Source: Chthonomonadales bacterium (GTDB lineage: Bacteria; Armatimonadota; Chthonomonadetes; Chthonomonadales; CAJBBX01). Taken from it: a stretch of DNA of 64,000 bases. A program made the position numbers. The DNA lies in contig JBBIPC010000006.1 in the NCBI GenBank assembly GCA_037443035.1, positions 129,092 through 193,091 of the forward strand, written 5' to 3'. This document shows, piece by piece, positions 27,001-39,000 of the stretch (positions within the stretch are counted from its first letter, which is position 1; each line of letters starts with the position of its first letter).

Positions 27001-30000
27001 CCAGCACAGAGAAGACGGAACTCATGATCTTCCTCGTGCCGCACGTCATCTCCGGCGACGCGTCGGCGAGGGCTATGACGGAAGATGTATCGAAGAACGT
27101 CCGGCGGTTGGTCCCCGAGCTGGAGAGAGAGCGTCCGGAGCTGAAGCCGCGACAGCAGACACCTCCGCAACACGGCCAGCAGACACCGCCGGAAGGCGGA
27201 CAACAGACACCCCCTGGGCAAGGTGGTCAGCAGACGCCACCACCCGGCAACACGGGCCAGCAGACTCCGCCGGCGAAGCCCTGAACCCCGTGCAACGTTG
27301 CGAACGACGCGGGGCAGGCCACGCGACCTGCCCCGCGCGTCGCTTCTGTTCGGAAATCCGCTACAGCTTCAACGCCGTGGAGACCGAAGCTTCCCGGACC
27401 TCGTCGGCGGTCACTTCCCTACCCAGCCTATCGGATAGGTAGATCCCCTCGCTGATGAGCATGGTCGCCAGGGCGGCTTCGGCGGTGGGCAGGAGCTCCA
27501 CCCGACCCTGCAGGGCGGCGATCCAATGATGCTGCGGCGAGTCGTAGGCGGACGTCTCTTCGTAGAGCTGGTGCCATCGCCAGTCCGCGCTGTCCAAGAG
27601 AAACGTCGCGTCCATCTCCATGTCGCAGACGGTGGTGTGGAACGAGAAGGGCTCCAGGCGCACGCCACCTTTGGACCCGAGAACGCAACTCCCCTCCAGG
27701 CCGCTTAGGTGCAGGGCCCAGGACTCGATGATGTCCAGGGTGATGTCGTCAGCCAACTTCACGAATCCCAGCCCCAGCTCCTCGACGTTGTACCCGCTGG
27801 ATTGGCGGCGGCCAGCGTCCATGTCGGTCTCTTGATAGACCTTGCCACTGATGCGGAGCACTTGGGGCAGGCCGAGCAGGTAGAGGATCCGGGCGATGTG
27901 ATAGACCCCCATGTCGTAGAGGGCGCCTCCCGCGGCAACCTCCTTCTTGACGAAGGACGCGGTGCCATAGCCATCCACGAAGGGCCTGCCTCGCCGCCGA
28001 AAACCTGAGGAGCGGGCATGGTAGAGGTGCCCGAGGTAGCCCCCGTCTATCAGGCGCTTGGCGGCTTTGGTTTCCTTGGAAAAAAGAGTCGAGAGCTGGA
28101 TGCTCAGCTTGCGCCCGCACTTCCGGGCTGTCTCGTACATCCGCAGGGCGTCTACGTACGAGCCGGCCATGGGCTTCTCGCAGTAGACATGCTTGCCGGC
28201 CTCCAACGCGGCGATGGTGACCGGCGCGTGCAGGTTGTTGTGCAGGCAGATGTCCACGGCCACCACTTCCGGATCGGCAAGAAGATCCCGGAAGTTGGTG
28301 TAGGTCCGCGGGATGGAGAAACGCTCGGCGACGCGGTGCAGCTCGTCTTGGGCGATGTCGGCGGCCGCGACGGCCTTGGCCCCCTCGATGCGGGCATAGT
28401 TCTCCAGATGGTGCTTGCCGATCTGGCCCACACCGATGATCCCGATTGGCAAAGGTTCCATGTGTCGCTACTCCTCGAGTTGGGAATGCAGTCTGGCACG
28501 ACGGCTACGCGAAGCTGCCCAGCTGCCGTGCCAGGTTGACGATATGCTGAAAGCTCTCCAGACTGACGCTGGACGGGACGGAGTGATCCGAGCTGAAGAT
28601 GTAGCCGCCGTCCTCCTTGAGGACCGGTACGACCCGGCGCATTTCGGCCTCGATGGCATCCAGGTCGTCCCAGAGCACCGCGTTGACGCCGCCGTGTAGG
28701 ACAAGACGGTCGCCGTAGCGCTGCTTGATGGCCACGGGGTCCATGCCGGCCTTGACCTCCAATGGGTTGAGGGCGTCGATGCCAGCGTCGAGGAACTCCG
28801 GGATGAAGGGGTTCACGTCACCACAGGAATGGAGGTGGACCCAGACGCCCCGGGCGTGGGCCCAGTCGGCGACGCGCTTGTGCAGGGGTTTGAGAAGCTG
28901 CCGGTAGGTCCGAACCGAGAAGAACTGGCTGTGCTTGTAACCCATGTCGTCGGGCCAAGTCACCACGTCGAAATGGTAACCGGCGTCCCAGACCCGTTCG
29001 AGGAGCGCCAGGTTGACATCCAGGAAGTGCCCGAAGATGTCCGCGAGCCATTCGGGGTCTTCGGCCAGGGCCAGCAAGACGCGCTCGGTACCCACGGTCC
29101 ACGAGTGGGTGACGTCGAAACCGAACCACAGGTGCCCCTCGATCCAGTAGCCCTCTTCGCGCCAGCGGCGGTAGTTTTGTCGGAGGTGATCCCAGGGGAT
29201 GCGGTCGTCGGAAGGGGTCATGCGGGCCTTGGCCTCCCGCCACGTGTCCCAATCCACGATGGTGAAGTCCAGGAACTCCGGCACGCCACCGGCATGTTTC
29301 CAGTTCTTCATGGTGACGCCGTAGCTGGACGTGCTGATGACGTAGTCCTCGGTCTCGTCCAGAACGCGGACCGGATATCGCGGGCTGATATCTACCGAGA
29401 TACCTGCCACGCGGTCGAGGTCGAAATACTCCACGAAGCTGAGATCTTCCGGCATGCCCTCGCGCCGCCACCGCTCGATGGTGGCCCCCCACGGGATGTC
29501 AATGATGGGCACGCGGTCGGCTTCGCGGTGTTGGTACATGCGGGCGAAGCGCTCGCGGCTGGTCACTTCGCAGATACCTCCAATCCCTCGCCGTCCAGGA
29601 TCACGTTGACACTGCAGCGCATGTTGTCGGGATCGCGAACCCAGTCGAGATATGGAGCGAGCCGAGCAGCGCAGTTGACGCTGTTGTGGGCCAGCACCAG
29701 ACCGCCTGGGACGAGGCGATCGTAGCATCCCTGCAGGATGTCCAGGTAGATGGCCTTTCCGCGGACCGCATCGCCGTCGGCGTCGAGGTAGAGCAGGTGC
29801 AGGTCCTCGGGGAAGTCGCGGGCCACGTCCACGGCGTCGGCGGCGATCACTCGGGCCACACCCGTGAGATCGAGCCGGCGGACGTTGCGCTCGGCGCGCT
29901 CGGCTTCGTGTGGCACGATCTCCACGCCGATGAGGTTCTTGGCCGTGTAACAAGCGCCCGGACCCACGGCTGCGCCGGCGTTGGAGATGAACGTGTTGCC

Positions 30001-36000: not shown

Positions 36001-39000
36001 TCGAAGCCACCGCCCTCAAGCATGGCCGCCACGAGGTTCTTGCCGATGTCGTGCAGGTCGCCGCGCACGGTGCCGATAACCACCTTCCCGACGGGCTTCG
36101 CCCCCGTCTCTACTAGCTTGGGGCGGATCAGCTCCAAGGCCGCCTTCATGGCGCGTGCCGAGATGAGGAGTTCCGGCACGAAGTACTCGTTCGCTTCGAA
36201 CAAGCGGCCAACTTCATCCATGGCGGGGATCATGTACTTCTGAAGGAGCTCTTCGGGGTTGGCGCCCTCTTCCAGAGCTTGCTTGACCGTAGACTCGGCA
36301 AGATTCTTGTTGCCTTCGAGTACGGCGGTGTAGAGGGCCTGCAAGTCAGTCATGTTAGGTTCCTCTTCGTTGTGGAGAGTGATGAGCCGGCTGCTCCTTA
36401 GCTTCGTGGAAAGCGTTCGGGATGCAGCTCGGCTGAGCGGCCTACGAGAACGTCCTCTTCGACTTCGTGCTCGACATCTGACTCGATGGCCTCGACGGGG
36501 CATACCTCGGCACAGTGAGGCGACTTGTAGAAGCCGAAGCACTCCGTGCAAAGACCCGAATCAATTGTGTATTCACCGTCAACCTCAGAAATGCCATCGT
36601 TCGGGCATTCCTCCAGGCACACACCACACTGTATGCACCGTTCCTGATTGATGCGTCGTGCCATGTCTGCTTTGTCCTCCACGGCGAGCGGAACGGTCCC
36701 CGCCGTTACTGATTGGTTGTCTTATTACTTCATGCAGCTCCAGACACCGTATTCCACGCAGCGCCACCCGACTCCTTCCGGCTGTGGCAAGGCGCTTCAA
36801 CGAGATCCTTGCCGCAGCCGCACGAGTGCGTGACTGCCAACCCAACGCACGCTTGGTTCGCCGGCCTTCCGGGACCACGGCAGAGTATACCTGACAGAAG
36901 GGAACAGGTCGAAGCAATTGTCGCGAGTATCCCAGAGTCCGTGAAGATCCACGCAGACTCCCCATGCGAACGCTGTACAGTCCAGCACGATGCCGTCGGC
37001 AGTTCGCTGAAGCGTGACTGGTTCTATCGCCATCTCCAGATCGTGAAATCGCTCCACAAACAGCCGATGCTGGGCCACAATTCGGTCTCCGTCGACGAGC
37101 ATGCCAAATGCTGCAGAGTGACGGGTACCGACAGCCGTCCATGTGGAACGCGGTATCTTGGCGAGTTGGACGGAGCCGTTCGGAGGTAGCTCCACAGCGA
37201 TGTCGTTCGACAGCGGATAACCGCCGGCGAGAAGGAAGATCCCGTAACGCAACGTGCCCGTAAACGGACTAGGACTGTCGTTGACGCCGTACCACGCGAT
37301 TTCGTCCCCTTCTTCCACAACGACCACGACAACCGGCTGGAATGCCCGCCGAACAGGATGATACGCTAGACGCCTTCGCAGGTAGTAGTCCACAATCGTC
37401 CAAGAGTGCGTCGCTGGCCACGAGTCGTTGTACATCCAGAAGATAGCCGACGAGCTGCTGAACATGCGACGGCGGTAGTTCGAGATGTACTCGACAAGTC
37501 CTTCAGCTTGCAACAAACCGCTGAGAAGAGCGTAGTCATCCATAGACTGCTGAAGCGGATCCAGGCCGGTCCAAAATCGGAACGTTTCGTAGGCGCGTCC
37601 TATCTCGCCCGGCCGCGATGCCCGGTAACCGATCGGATTGTCATGATGGACCCAGCTCGGGCTGAGCAGATGCTGTTCGTGTTCGGGCAGAAAGGCTCGC
37701 AGCGTGACTGGCAGACCTGCGCCGAGCACGCCTCCCTCATTGGCAAACCGGTCCACATAGTTGCGGTACCTGTGGAAATCCGCTGGTCCAGGATCCAGTA
37801 TCGAGACACCCCAGGGATGCTGATCACCCGTTGTCGGGTCGTTGGGCGGTGCGTAATCAGCGGACCACGGAGAGCTAGGCCAGTATGGACGTGTGCCGTC
37901 TTCCGCAGCCAGGATGGCAGGAATGTGATGGTGGAACAGCGCATGGTGCGGGGCGACGGGACGGTGCTGGCGATAGCCCCAAGCGTAGTCACCCCAGTCC
38001 ACCTCATTGTTGCCACACCAGACGATGAGGGACGGATGGTGCGCCATGCGGCGAACCGCCTCGGTTACCTCAGCTTCCACCTCGCTGACGAAGGCCGGGT
38101 CATCGCCCGGGTATTTCGCGCATGCAAAGAGGAAGTCGTGCCATAGCATGATCCCGGCTTGGTCGCATGCTTCCAGCAAAGCCTCTGGGGCGAACACTGC
38201 CCCTCCCCAGACGCGCAGTGTGTTGAAGTTCGCGTCGCGAGCGTTCTGAACGAGCTTCTCGTACGTCTCCCGCGATACTTGAGAAGGGAATACACTGGGC
38301 GGAACCCAGTTCGCTCCTTTGCAGAAGACCGGACGCCCGTTGATGTGGATAACGAAGTAGCGTCCGCCTTCTGGATGTGGGGATTGCTCGATGTGCACGC
38401 GACGAAAGGCCGTCTTCCGTCGCACGACTTGTTCGTCGTCGCCGCACCTCAAGACAACTCGAACCTCGTAGAGCCTCTGACTACCTTGACCGGAAGGCCA
38501 CCAGAGTTCTGCGTTGTCAAACGGGAGAGTTACCTCGTGACTTGTCATTGTGGACTCGACTGCGGACTTCACCTCGACCTCATCCGAGACACCTCGCTCC
38601 GGCAGTGAGGCGATCATCCTGGCGCGCAAGTCGTCCGAATGACGCGGCCAGCGCACGAACAAGCGGCAGCGCAGGGAGCCCTGCATGAGGGAGTCATCCA
38701 ACCTGGCGATGACGGAGGCGGAATCGACAAGTGGGATGGTGGAGTGTTCGAGGCGGACGTTGCCCAAGATCCCAACACTCATGAGCCGCGGATTCCAGTC
38801 CCATCCGCACTGGTACTGAGCCTTCCGCAGGAGAGGTCGGCGCGTCATGCGAGCGTAATGATCGAAGCCGTAGGGCGCCACTGGGGTGTCATTGACAGCA
38901 TGTAACCCACTCTCGACCATGACCGCGATGGTGTTCGTGCCGCTTCGGAGCCGGTCGGTGACGTCGAAGACGGCCTTCCGATGCGAGTTAGCATGGCGAC

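What a model noticed while it worked through the whole genome (the two positions that open the first line are those of the whole stretch)
28505..36664. Methanol:corrinoid methyltransferase operon (MtaB-MtaC) joined to a stand-alone homocysteine-methyltransferase domain
One minus-strand operon encodes a ferredoxin, an MtaC-type corrinoid protein, MtaB (35% identical to the Methanosarcina methanol:corrinoid methyltransferase), an unannotated UroD-like protein, an MT2-type UroD-fold methyltransferase, a 292-aa protein that is just the homocysteine-binding domain of MetH/YitJ, DUF1638, a class-I methyltransferase and another UroD-fold protein, next to GH2 and NAGidase genes. I propose that methanol set free from methyl-esterified or methyl-etherified glycans is captured on the corrinoid and the methyl group is passed directly to homocysteine, giving a folate-independent, methanol-driven methionine synthase. 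That would be a new assimilatory use of the methanoge [...]
Evidence so far: Gene order g01269-g01261 with Pfam and Swiss-Prot matches: MtaB E 5e-86, 34.6% id over 459 aa; corrinoid protein 44% id to MtbC/MttC; g01264 33.6% id to the S-methyltransferase half of B. subtilis YitJ and 32% to MetH; g01265 31% to MtsA. neighbours.tsv: MtaB next to a B12-binding gene in 17 of 67 Chthonomonadales genomes and 1312 of 2146 genomes with both; S-methyl_trans next to URO-D in 21 of 67 of the order and 1986 genomes overall; DUF1638 next to S-methyl_trans in 10 of 67 and 1085 overall; MtaB family in 80 of 637 Armatimonadota. Complete MetH (g00815) and YitJ-like g02415 exist elsewhere. Activase RamQ-like g01508 on C8.
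(Added by a program. Inside this text positions count along the whole contig: contig position 129,092 is position 1 of the stretch shown here. "Call 12" and the like, gene names such as g00115 and contig names such as C1 are that model's own, and its searches are not shown. The text may have been shortened before it was handed on; [...] marks where a part breaks off. The agent that wrote the report below was given it as the finding of a first reader that could run no searches.)

Follow-up and report, generated by a model that had tools for sequence, protein, structure and literature searches.

The report
B12 methyl hub with methanol valve
This sugar-degrading bacterium carries a vitamin-B12 methyl-shuttling operon that probably strips methyl groups off sugars, uses a few of them to make methionine and, judging from gene patterns across its phylum, may dump the rest as methanol by running a methanogen-type enzyme backwards, which no experiment has yet tested.

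Summary
The operon is real and one gene longer than reported. MtaB, the corrinoid protein and the homocysteine domain (HMT) keep their catalytic residues. The three UroD-fold genes are not MT2-type thiol methylases: none has the His-Cys-Cys site. The genome has about 35 UroD-fold genes but only one free corrinoid protein and one activase, and no folate methyltransferase, so the operon looks like a shared methyl hub. Of 201 Armatimonadota genomes, 124 have the hub: 46 carry only MtaB, 64 only a folate methyltransferase (often beside fhs), 7 both and 7 neither, against 30 each expected for both and neither. Three genomes of one genus in the same family have the operon without mtaB next to the corrinoid gene, plus a folate methyltransferase. 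MtaB thus substitutes for the methyl exit. Best reading (0.45): UroD enzymes demethylate sugars, HMT takes a small share, and MtaB releases the surplus as methanol. Methanol-fed methionine synthesis stays plausible (0.3), because the folate enzyme also donates methyl groups where MetH is missing and some related mtaB genes have methanol-sensor-like regulators. Earlier scan notes on other DNA proposed the hub, methanol-fed synthesis and, once, methanol release. Everything about mechanism is inferred.

The parts
36398..36664 (-). 2x[4Fe-4S] ferredoxin (YfhL-like), 88 aa; probable electron carrier for corrinoid reactivation (inferred)
   Evidence: Pfam Fer4; NF033683 81.5 bits vs cut-off 86; next to the corrinoid gene in relatives
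35715..36353 (-). Stand-alone corrinoid protein, 212 aa, with D99-x-H101-x-x-G motif; the only one in the genome apart from the MetH domain
   Evidence: PF02607+PF02310; scores higher against MtgC/MtbC models than MtaC; one paralog, MetH, by blast; motif invariant in 51 of 51
34200..35609 (-). MtaB-family methanol:corrinoid methyltransferase, 469 aa; proposed reversible methanol valve
   Evidence: PF12176 522 bits; aligns to 2I2X with E164/C220/K267/C269/E313 = E174/C230/K274/C276/E320, each invariant in 81 of 81 relatives; NF040651 387 bits vs cut-off 720
33115..34203 (-). uroA: UroD-fold protein, 362 aa, H264-x-D266, no thiol-type Cys pair; candidate O-demethylase (MT1)
   Evidence: No Pfam or NCBIfam hit; model pLDDT 96, top folds MtaA 4AY8/4AY7 and UroD; invariant D157 N161 D163 Q231 C232 D233 H264 D266 in 113 sequences
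31928..33118 (-). uroB: UroD-fold protein, 396 aa, H279-x-C281...N362; candidate MT1, not a canonical MT2
   Evidence: PF01208; Asn in place of the third MtaA Cys; TIGR01463 66 bits vs cut-off 235
31065..31943 (-). Stand-alone homocysteine methyltransferase domain (MtgE/split-MetH type), 292 aa
   Evidence: PF02574 only; G18, G21, F66, E146, C208, N235, C273, C274 align to T. maritima MetH and are invariant in 35 of 35
30296..31075 (-). DUF1638, accessory protein of split methionine synthases, probably for B12 reactivation
   Evidence: PF07796; single copy; needed for methionine synthesis in Phaeobacter (PMC5764234 passages)
29563..30306 (-). SAM-dependent class I methyltransferase, 247 aa; acceptor unknown
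   Evidence: PF13578; weak match to O-methyltransferase 7CVU, E 5e-4; in 5 of 80 MtaB loci and in the mtaB-less operon of G167
28505..29566 (-). uroC: UroD-fold protein, 353 aa, D206-D207, H246-x-C248...H328; member of the large paralog set
   Evidence: PF01208; 22 blast paralogs in the genome, one 64% identical; motifs
27361..28461 (-).
   Evidence: PF01408; 43-base gap; conserved after uroC in L001, L003, L077 and G167
36797..39328 (-). GH2 beta-mannosidase-like gene upstream on the same strand; link to the operon not shown
   Evidence: Pfam GH2 domains; 132-base gap to the ferredoxin

Best explanation
The operon is the core of a genome-wide corrinoid methyl hub. Step 1 (inferred): UroD-fold MT1 enzymes, three here and about 32 elsewhere, take methyl groups from methylated substrates, most likely O-methyl sugars, and put them on the one corrinoid protein. 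Step 2 (inferred; published for homologous parts): HMT passes the small share needed for biosynthesis to homocysteine, giving methionine without folate. Step 3 (the new claim, inferred): the surplus leaves through MtaB running opposite to its textbook direction, hydrolysing the methyl-corrinoid to methanol and regenerating Co(I). The net reaction is oxygen-free hydrolysis of a methyl ether to sugar plus methanol. In relatives that have a folate methyltransferase with MetF/MetV and Fhs, the surplus is oxidised through folate instead and mtaB is usually absent. RACo (on C8), DUF1638 and the ferredoxin repair oxidised cobalt. MtaB is reversible, so at high methanol and spare homocysteine it could still feed methionine.
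For: One free corrinoid protein, one RACo, one DUF1638 and one free HMT serve 35 UroD-fold genes. Only 3 of 35 have His-Cys-Cys, the S-methyltransferase signature of PMC10418091. RACo occurs in 124 of 201 phylum genomes, which are exactly the 123 with at least 6 URO-D matches plus G104. All 53 MtaB genomes and all 71 folate-methyltransferase genomes lie inside this set. In the 124: MtaB only 46, folate enzyme only 64, both 7, neither 7; independence gives 30 for both and 30 for neither. Within-family shuffling of the 123 gives a mean of 10.0 for both, P 0.0017. The folate enzyme looks catabolic: fhs in 69 of 71 such genomes, within 5 kb in 20 and within 16 kb in 27. G167 has the same nine genes without mtaB, a folate MT-MetF-MetV-fhs operon and full MetH; G176 and G252 match it. 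Of 8 folate-enzyme genomes that also have MetH, none has MtaB; all 7 with both lack MetH. In 50 genomes outside the phylum with this MtaB group, 2 have the folate enzyme, both Bacillota. This genome lacks fhs, PQQ methanol dehydrogenase and CE8. With a recalled +7 kJ/mol for methylcobalamin hydrolysis, only about 2% of the corrinoid stays methylated at 1 mM methanol. Assumed methionine and SAM demand is about 0.01-0.02 methyl per hexose.
Against: No reaction was measured. Every characterised MtaB I read about consumes methanol. 63 of 71 folate-enzyme genomes lack MetH, so there the enzyme must also donate methyl groups to HMT; the swap can therefore also be read as donor for donor. A PocR-AraC regulator, the architecture of the methanol-responsive MtaR of Eubacterium limosum, lies within 2.5 kb of mtaB in 13 of 91 loci, though in none of the 46-row subclade that holds this MtaB (support 88). 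Seven hub genomes have neither gene. G256 has the operon without mtaB and no folate enzyme (MtaB elsewhere in G256 not tested). Outside the phylum, 17 of 50 MtaB genomes have only 1-4 URO-D matches (completeness not given). 19 of 46 MtaB-only genomes have fhs. Eight MtaB-only genomes carry a more methanogen-like MtaB, which in G016 lies beside an MtaA-MtaC fusion. Genomes are related, so the counts overstate independence; 30 of 36 families show one state only. Sugar context is modest: 14 of 30 paralog loci have a glycosidase, Gfo/Idh/MocA or sugar transporter within two genes, with no background measured. The thermodynamic value is recalled.
Confidence: 0.45

Rival explanations
1. One reading: MtaB runs forward as one more donor. 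Methanol, and methylated sugars through the UroD enzymes, methylate the corrinoid, and HMT makes methionine without folate. MtaB replaces the folate enzyme as a donor.
For: Intact MtaB and HMT in one operon, with no folate methyltransferase in the genome. HMT is within 10 kb of mtaB in 18 of 80 loci and a folate enzyme in 1. The folate enzyme is the only route to methionine in most genomes that have it (63 of 71 lack MetH). PocR-AraC regulators lie beside 13 of 91 mtaB genes, several in Kiritimatiellota-type genomes with no folate enzyme. Transfer to a thiol is downhill (recalled). The MtgBCDE precedent exists.
Against: This genome has full MetH and YitJ. The model does not explain why hub genomes without the folate enzyme nearly always have MtaB (46 of 53), or why MtaB avoids genomes where methanol could also be oxidised through folate and Fhs (7 of 71). 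It leaves 30-90 demethylases per genome with only a biosynthetic sink. mtaB was found in 0 of 33 independent stand-alone HMT loci. No PocR regulator lies beside this MtaB subclade.
Confidence: 0.3
2. The bulk acceptor is a small thiol or a SAM cycle. The MtaA-like His-Cys-Cys protein beside RACo on C8 methylates sulfide or another thiol, or methionine is turned over through SAM and the operon's class I methyltransferase; MtaB supplies methanol-derived methyl groups to that route.
For: C8:105536 aligns to MtaA with all three zinc ligands (TIGR01463 160 bits vs cut-off 235). Close homologs occur in 42 of 201 genomes, including 5 of the 7 with neither exit gene. Related Mlp proteins methylate selenide and weakly sulfide (PMC10418091).
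Against: Found in only 18 of 46 MtaB-only genomes and in 19 of 64 folate-only genomes (9 candidates scored per genome), so it does not track MtaB. It is not in the operon. No benefit of methylating a thiol with methanol is evident. The class I methyltransferase is in only 5 of 80 MtaB loci.
Confidence: 0.15
3. The UroD-fold paralogs act on something other than O-methyl sugars (methoxy-aromatics, methyl sulfides, N-methyl compounds) or are not methyltransferases, or this MtaB group uses another small substrate; the co-occurrence reflects shared ancestry and habitat.
For: No member is characterised. Identity to MtaA is about 10% for uroA. 16 of 30 paralog loci show no sugar gene nearby. The UroD superfamily includes dehalogenases and aryl O-demethylases. 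MtaB is below the archaeal equivalog cut-off.
Against: URO-D expansion and RACo coincide in 123 of 124 genomes, including splits inside one genus (g60). MtaB active-site residues are invariant. UroD genes sit in one operon with the corrinoid, HMT and DUF1638 genes across phyla.
Confidence: 0.1

Closest known systems
MtaB-MtaC(-MtaA) methanol:CoM methyltransferase of Methanosarcina (PDB 2I2X, 4AY7) and methanol:THF systems of acetogens (Moorella MtaABC, PMC13391211 passages)
   Same: MtaB family with conserved zinc and catalytic residues, encoded next to a His-on corrinoid protein; ATP-dependent activase in the genome.
   Different: No MtaA or folate methyltransferase in the operon, and no folate methyltransferase in the genome. 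The corrinoid is MtgC/MtbC-like rather than MtaC-like. The host has cytochrome oxidase and lacks fhs. MtaB is anti-correlated with the folate acceptor instead of paired with it.
Split cobalamin-dependent methionine synthase of Phaeobacter inhibens (PMC5764234) and MtgBCDE of Ruegeria pomeroyi (PMC12478193)
   Same: Free homocysteine domain, free corrinoid protein, DUF1638 and RamA-like activase; one corrinoid shared between demethylation and methionine synthesis.
   Different: The pterin-binding MtgD, essential there, is absent here. Donors are UroD-fold proteins and MtaB, not MttB-family. Full MetH coexists.
Aryl methyl ether O-demethylases OdmB, VdmB, MtvB, MtoB (UroD-superfamily MT1; PMC13222342 and PMC10418091 passages)
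   Same: UroD fold, non-His-Cys-Cys metal site, corrinoid partner and activase.
   Different: About 35 divergent copies share one corrinoid; substrates are probably sugars (untested); no folate MT2. I could not compare sequences with OdmB, VdmB or MtvB directly.
Type 1 mlp gene clusters (Kountz and Balskus, PMC10418091)
   Same: Several UroD-fold genes with a corrinoid protein and no folate methylase.
   Different: Mlps have His-Cys-Cys and occur in strict anaerobes; the three UroD genes here lack that site, RACo is unlinked, and MtaB, HMT and DUF1638 are present.
Folate-independent core methionine synthases MesA-D (PMC7857596)
   Same: Methionine made from a methylated corrinoid protein without folate.
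   Different: Mes enzymes are MetE-type; this HMT is MetH-type (PF02574) and the genome has no PF01717 match.

Membership tests
MtaB family | Full-length PF12176 match | tested here: met
   522 bits, residues 17-465
MtaB family | Zinc and catalytic residues E164, C220, K267, C269, E313 (their roles recalled) | tested here: met
   E174, C230, K274, C276, E320; 81 of 81
MtaB family | Archaeal equivalog cut-off NF040651 | tested here: not met
   387 bits vs 720
MtaB family | Methanol turnover and direction of flux | not testable with these tools
   Needs an enzyme assay
Three-component methanol methyltransferase system (MtaABC) | MT1 next to a corrinoid protein | tested here: met
   105-base gap; 46 of 80 loci
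Three-component methanol methyltransferase system (MtaABC) | MT2: folate methyltransferase | tested here: not met
   PF00809 hits only FolP and MetH; NF005719 below cut-off
Three-component methanol methyltransferase system (MtaABC) | MT2: MtaA-type His-Cys-Cys thiol methyltransferase in the operon | tested here: not met
   uroA H-x-D, uroB H-C-N, uroC H-C-H; an unlinked MtaA-like gene exists on C8
Split MetH / MtgCDE | Stand-alone homocysteine domain with intact zinc site | tested here: met
   C208, C273, C274, N235, E146
Split MetH / MtgCDE | Corrinoid protein, DUF1638 and RamA-like activase | tested here: met
Split MetH / MtgCDE | Stand-alone pterin-binding subunit (MtgD) | tested here: not met
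   genome 100% complete by marker genes
Type 1 mlp gene cluster | At least two His-Cys-Cys Mlps, corrinoid and Ram protein co-transcribed | tested here: not met
   0 of 3 operon UroD genes have His-Cys-Cys; RACo is on another contig
UroD-superfamily O-demethylase (MT1) | UroD fold | tested here: met
   PF01208 for uroB and uroC; fold search for uroA
UroD-superfamily O-demethylase (MT1) | Cys ligand replaced by carboxylate or non-ligand | tested here: inconclusive
   Met for uroA and uroB; uroC has His at the third place, which the published rule does not cover
UroD-superfamily O-demethylase (MT1) | Ether cleavage with methyl transfer to the corrinoid | not testable with these tools
   Needs an enzyme assay

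The most novel reading that the evidence does not exclude
A widespread group of bacterial MtaB enzymes works in vivo as methyl-corrinoid hydrolases. Coupled to dozens of UroD-fold sugar O-demethylases through one shared corrinoid protein, they form an oxygen-free, folate-free methyl-ether hydrolase. Glycan degraders in Armatimonadota, Verrucomicrobiota, Planctomycetota and Acidobacteriota would then be methanol producers that feed methanogens, and mtaB in metagenomes would not reliably mark methanol consumption.
Probability: 0.38. Interest if true: 0.9.

Novelty: new variant of a known kind. Interest (0 to 1): 0.72.

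Why it matters
Methyl ethers block sugar breakdown, and no anaerobic route for removing them from sugars came up in my searches. 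If the hub model holds, a large uncharacterised family (up to about 90 candidates per genome) gets a function. If MtaB is the exit, a methanogen enzyme has the opposite physiological role in bacteria, giving a new methanol source in soils, peat and digesters. Surveys that read bacterial mtaB as methanol consumption, such as Acidobacteriota in Stordalen Mire (PMC10805028 passages), would need rereading. One labelling experiment separates the two.

Tried and rejected
MT2 label for uroB: rejected. Methanol from pectin esters as an internal source: no CE8 found. Methanol oxidation: no PQQ dehydrogenase over the cut-off and no fhs; alcohol dehydrogenases were not surveyed. Riboswitch test for methionine regulation: no Rfam hit in the window, but none at metH, yitJ or six other loci either, so uninformative. 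Promoter and terminator scan: at chance level. Expression: no RNA holder was listed. A direction-specific MtaB residue: Asp219 of 2I2X is Ala in 81 of 81, including the Bacillota copy that sits beside a folate enzyme, so it marks nothing. Sequence search of solved structures for uroA: nothing. Gain versus loss of mtaB in the family: corrinoid tree unresolved. No complex prediction of uroA with the corrinoid protein was obtained. Literature: no paper held all terms; some searches returned the papers cited, and none of the passages I read describes MtaB releasing methanol in bacteria or an MtaB-fed homocysteine domain. Sauer and Thauer 1997 (PMID 9363780) is not held; I saw only its title in a reference list. 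Most subscription papers are outside the library, and I did not open any supplements.

Full report
Observation. The nine genes described are present on the minus strand at 28505-36664, tightly coupled, and a Gfo/Idh/MocA gene at 27361-28461 continues the unit. The window lies on contig C6 of a 3.76-Mb genome rated 100% complete and 1% contaminated. The closest MtaB relatives are from Chthonomonadales at 76-78% identity. The same gene order occurs in L001, L003 and L077.

The parts. MtaB aligns over its whole length to Methanosarcina barkeri MtaB (2I2X). E164, C220, K267, C269 and E313 are kept and are invariant in 81 of 81 relatives; their roles as zinc ligands and catalytic residues are recalled. 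The corrinoid protein has the His-on motif and scores higher against MtgC/MtbC than MtaC models. HMT has the homocysteine and zinc residues of Thermotoga MetH. DUF1638 and a RamA-like activase are required with the split methionine synthase of Phaeobacter (PMC5764234, passages). uroA has no family hit but folds like MtaA/UroD. Kountz and Balskus (PMC10418091, parts 1-4 of 6 read) state that UroD-type S-methyltransferases have His-Cys-Cys and that O-methyltransferases lose one or both Cys.

The genome. It has 32 PF01208 matches; with three more found by blast I aligned 35, of which 3 have His-Cys-Cys. There is one free corrinoid protein, one DUF1638, one MtaB and one free HMT, and one RACo on C8. 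PF00809 hits only FolP and MetH. MTHFR occurs only in YitJ. Not found: fhs, CE8, MetE, PQQ methanol dehydrogenase over the cut-off, CobS, [FeFe] hydrogenase. Found: cytochrome oxidase and CE15. By my hand tally, 14 of 30 paralog loci have a glycosidase, Gfo/Idh/MocA or sugar transporter within two genes. No background was measured and Gfo genes are very common here, so this is weak support for sugar substrates.

The phylum. One sample of 201 genomes at least 85% complete was searched with six queries besides the MtaA-like one below. MtaB: 53. At least 6 URO-D matches: 123, with only 9 candidates scored per genome, so these are not copy numbers. RACo: 124, the same 123 plus G104. Stand-alone folate methyltransferase over the NF005719 cut-off: 71. 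Stand-alone HMT: 112 of the 124 and 1 of the other 77, counted from the 150 of 207 rows listed. The UroD expansion is thus tied to corrinoid chemistry, and HMT is a standard part of the hub whether or not MtaB is present. Inside the 124: MtaB only 46, folate enzyme only 64, both 7, neither 7, against 30 and 30 expected. Two of the neither group have a split or weak folate enzyme (G072, G157). Related genomes inflate such counts: by majority state 21 families are folate-type, 13 MtaB-type and 2 neither. A within-family shuffle still gives P 0.0017 (7 observed, mean 10.0). Leaving out 8 genomes with a more methanogen-like MtaB gives 38, 64, 7 and 7.

What does MtaB substitute for? The folate enzyme is linked to C1 oxidation: fhs is present in 69 of 71 genomes, within 5 kb in 20 and within 16 kb in 27. 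G167, in the same family as this genome, has the other nine genes in the same order at 53-80% identity, with uroA directly after the corrinoid gene. It has a folate MT-MetF-MetV-fhs operon and complete MetH, so it does not need the folate enzyme to make methionine. In the family, 17 of 24 genomes have the corrinoid gene: mtaB follows in 11, uroA in 4, and 2 end at contig breaks. Three of those 4, all one genus, are the only three with the folate enzyme. The fourth, G256, has neither in view and was not searched for MtaB elsewhere. Phylum-wide, 8 of the 71 folate-enzyme genomes have MetH and none of the 8 has MtaB; all 7 with both lack MetH; 6 of 7 with neither have MetH. Outside the phylum, 2 of 50 genomes chosen from the 80 MtaB loci have the folate enzyme, both Bacillota. 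Of 86 HMT loci found independently, after dropping L167 and L169 as repeats of the mtaB loci L001 and L002, 33 are stand-alone; 16 have a corrinoid gene within 10 kb, 15 a UroD gene and 0 mtaB (many contigs are short).

Mechanism. A cell with dozens of demethylases and one carrier needs a high-capacity way to unload it. With assumed textbook numbers, methionine and SAM demand is only 0.01-0.02 methyl per hexose. Folate oxidation is one exit. MtaB can be the other: from memory, Sauer and Thauer 1997 showed that MtaB hydrolyses methylcobalamin to methanol at about +7 kJ/mol (title seen; paper not held). At that value the carrier would be about 2% methylated at 1 mM methanol, so MtaB unloads it unless methanol is abundant or homocysteine pulls. 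Shown here: gene content, residues and distribution. Inferred: all substrates and directions.

Against. 63 of 71 folate-enzyme genomes lack MetH, so that enzyme is also their donor for methionine, as MtgD is in Ruegeria (PMC12478193, parts 1-3 of 6 read); the swap can be read as donor for donor. A PocR-AraC gene, built like the MtaR activator of Eubacterium limosum (PMC13602510, passages), lies beside mtaB in 13 of 91 loci, which fits methanol use in those lineages. None lies in the 46-row subclade holding this MtaB; by my count about 38 of these have enough upstream DNA to tell. 17 of 50 outside genomes have only 1-4 URO-D matches. An MtaA-like His-Cys-Cys protein beside RACo offers a thiol acceptor; it was found in 42 of 201 genomes, including 5 of 7 with neither exit, but in only 18 of 46 MtaB-only genomes.

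Relation to known systems and novelty. It works like a three-component corrinoid methyltransferase sharing its carrier with a split methionine synthase. It is not a member of MtaABC, MtgCDE or type 1 mlp clusters, since each fails a defining feature. Folate-independent methionine synthases are known (PMC7857596, abstract and passages). Bacterial mtaB expression in Acidobacteriota is published and read as methanol consumption (PMC10805028, passages). Other papers seen only as passages: PMC13618148, PMC5770442, PMC13391211, PMC13222342. Ten searches gave no description of MtaB feeding a homocysteine domain or releasing methanol in bacteria; the library lacks most subscription journals and I opened no supplements. 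Earlier AI notes of this scan on other genomes proposed the sugar-demethylase hub, the methanol-fed synthase and, once, possible methanol release; they are not independent support. What this study adds is the mutual exclusion of MtaB and the fhs-linked folate enzyme, and the matched operon without mtaB.

Verdict. Real operon; new variant of a known kind; methanol-release valve 0.45, methanol-fed methionine synthesis 0.3, thiol or SAM sink 0.15, other 0.1; interest 0.72.

Noticed in passing
G000 C8:104019-106666 (L090:4020-6667, - strand): RACo activase lies directly downstream of the genome's most MtaA-like UroD gene (His-Cys-Cys), among Gfo/Idh/MocA and 3-keto-disaccharide hydrolase genes; the pair is also adjacent in G167 and G140.
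   Followed up: partly
L091, L105, L107, L109 (G000 C32, C23, C24, C9): DUF6785/DUF6784 genes lie within two genes of a UroD paralog at four loci; possibly substrate transporters.
   Followed up: no
L093:3075-6552 (G000 C19): A His-Cys-Cys UroD paralog lies in line with DUF4380, a RhaT sugar transporter and an arabinose-isomerase-like gene, a good first target for a substrate screen.
   Followed up: no
L132:8535-11689 (G016), also L138 (G036): A more methanogen-like MtaB sits beside an MtaA-MtaC fusion (NF004889 and TIGR01463 over cut-off for L132) in small Armatimonadota genomes; a separate system whose thiol acceptor is unknown.
   Followed up: partly
L034:3763-5436: One 557-codon open frame matches both HMT and DUF1638, a possible fusion in an Acidobacteria genome.
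   Followed up: no
L072:9234-12000: In a Calditrichia genome, corrinoid-mtaB is followed by a stand-alone MetH reactivation domain.
   Followed up: no
L057-L070, L075, L079 (11 loci): A CobW-family metal chaperone directly follows mtaB in Kiritimatiellota-type loci, most with a PocR-AraC regulator upstream.
   Followed up: partly
L182: A record titled Candidatus Kuenenia has stand-alone HMT with corrinoid, RACo and DUF1638 genes; the label was not checked.
   Followed up: no
G000 whole genome: About 50 Gfo/Idh/MocA paralogs; no CobS, so the corrinoid is probably scavenged.
   Followed up: no
window 16115-27284 (+): Type II secretion-like gene cluster (K, L/PilM, M, secretin) converging on the operon end.
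   Followed up: no
window 39445-47229 (+): NAGidase, a PF00756 esterase (41598-42374), aldo-keto reductase, AnmK and MurJ, divergent from the GH2 gene; the esterase could be a local methanol or formaldehyde link, untested.
   Followed up: no
L120:3196-4323 (G049): An IS605/TnpB gene is inserted in the hub operon of a genome that has neither MtaB nor the folate enzyme.
   Followed up: no
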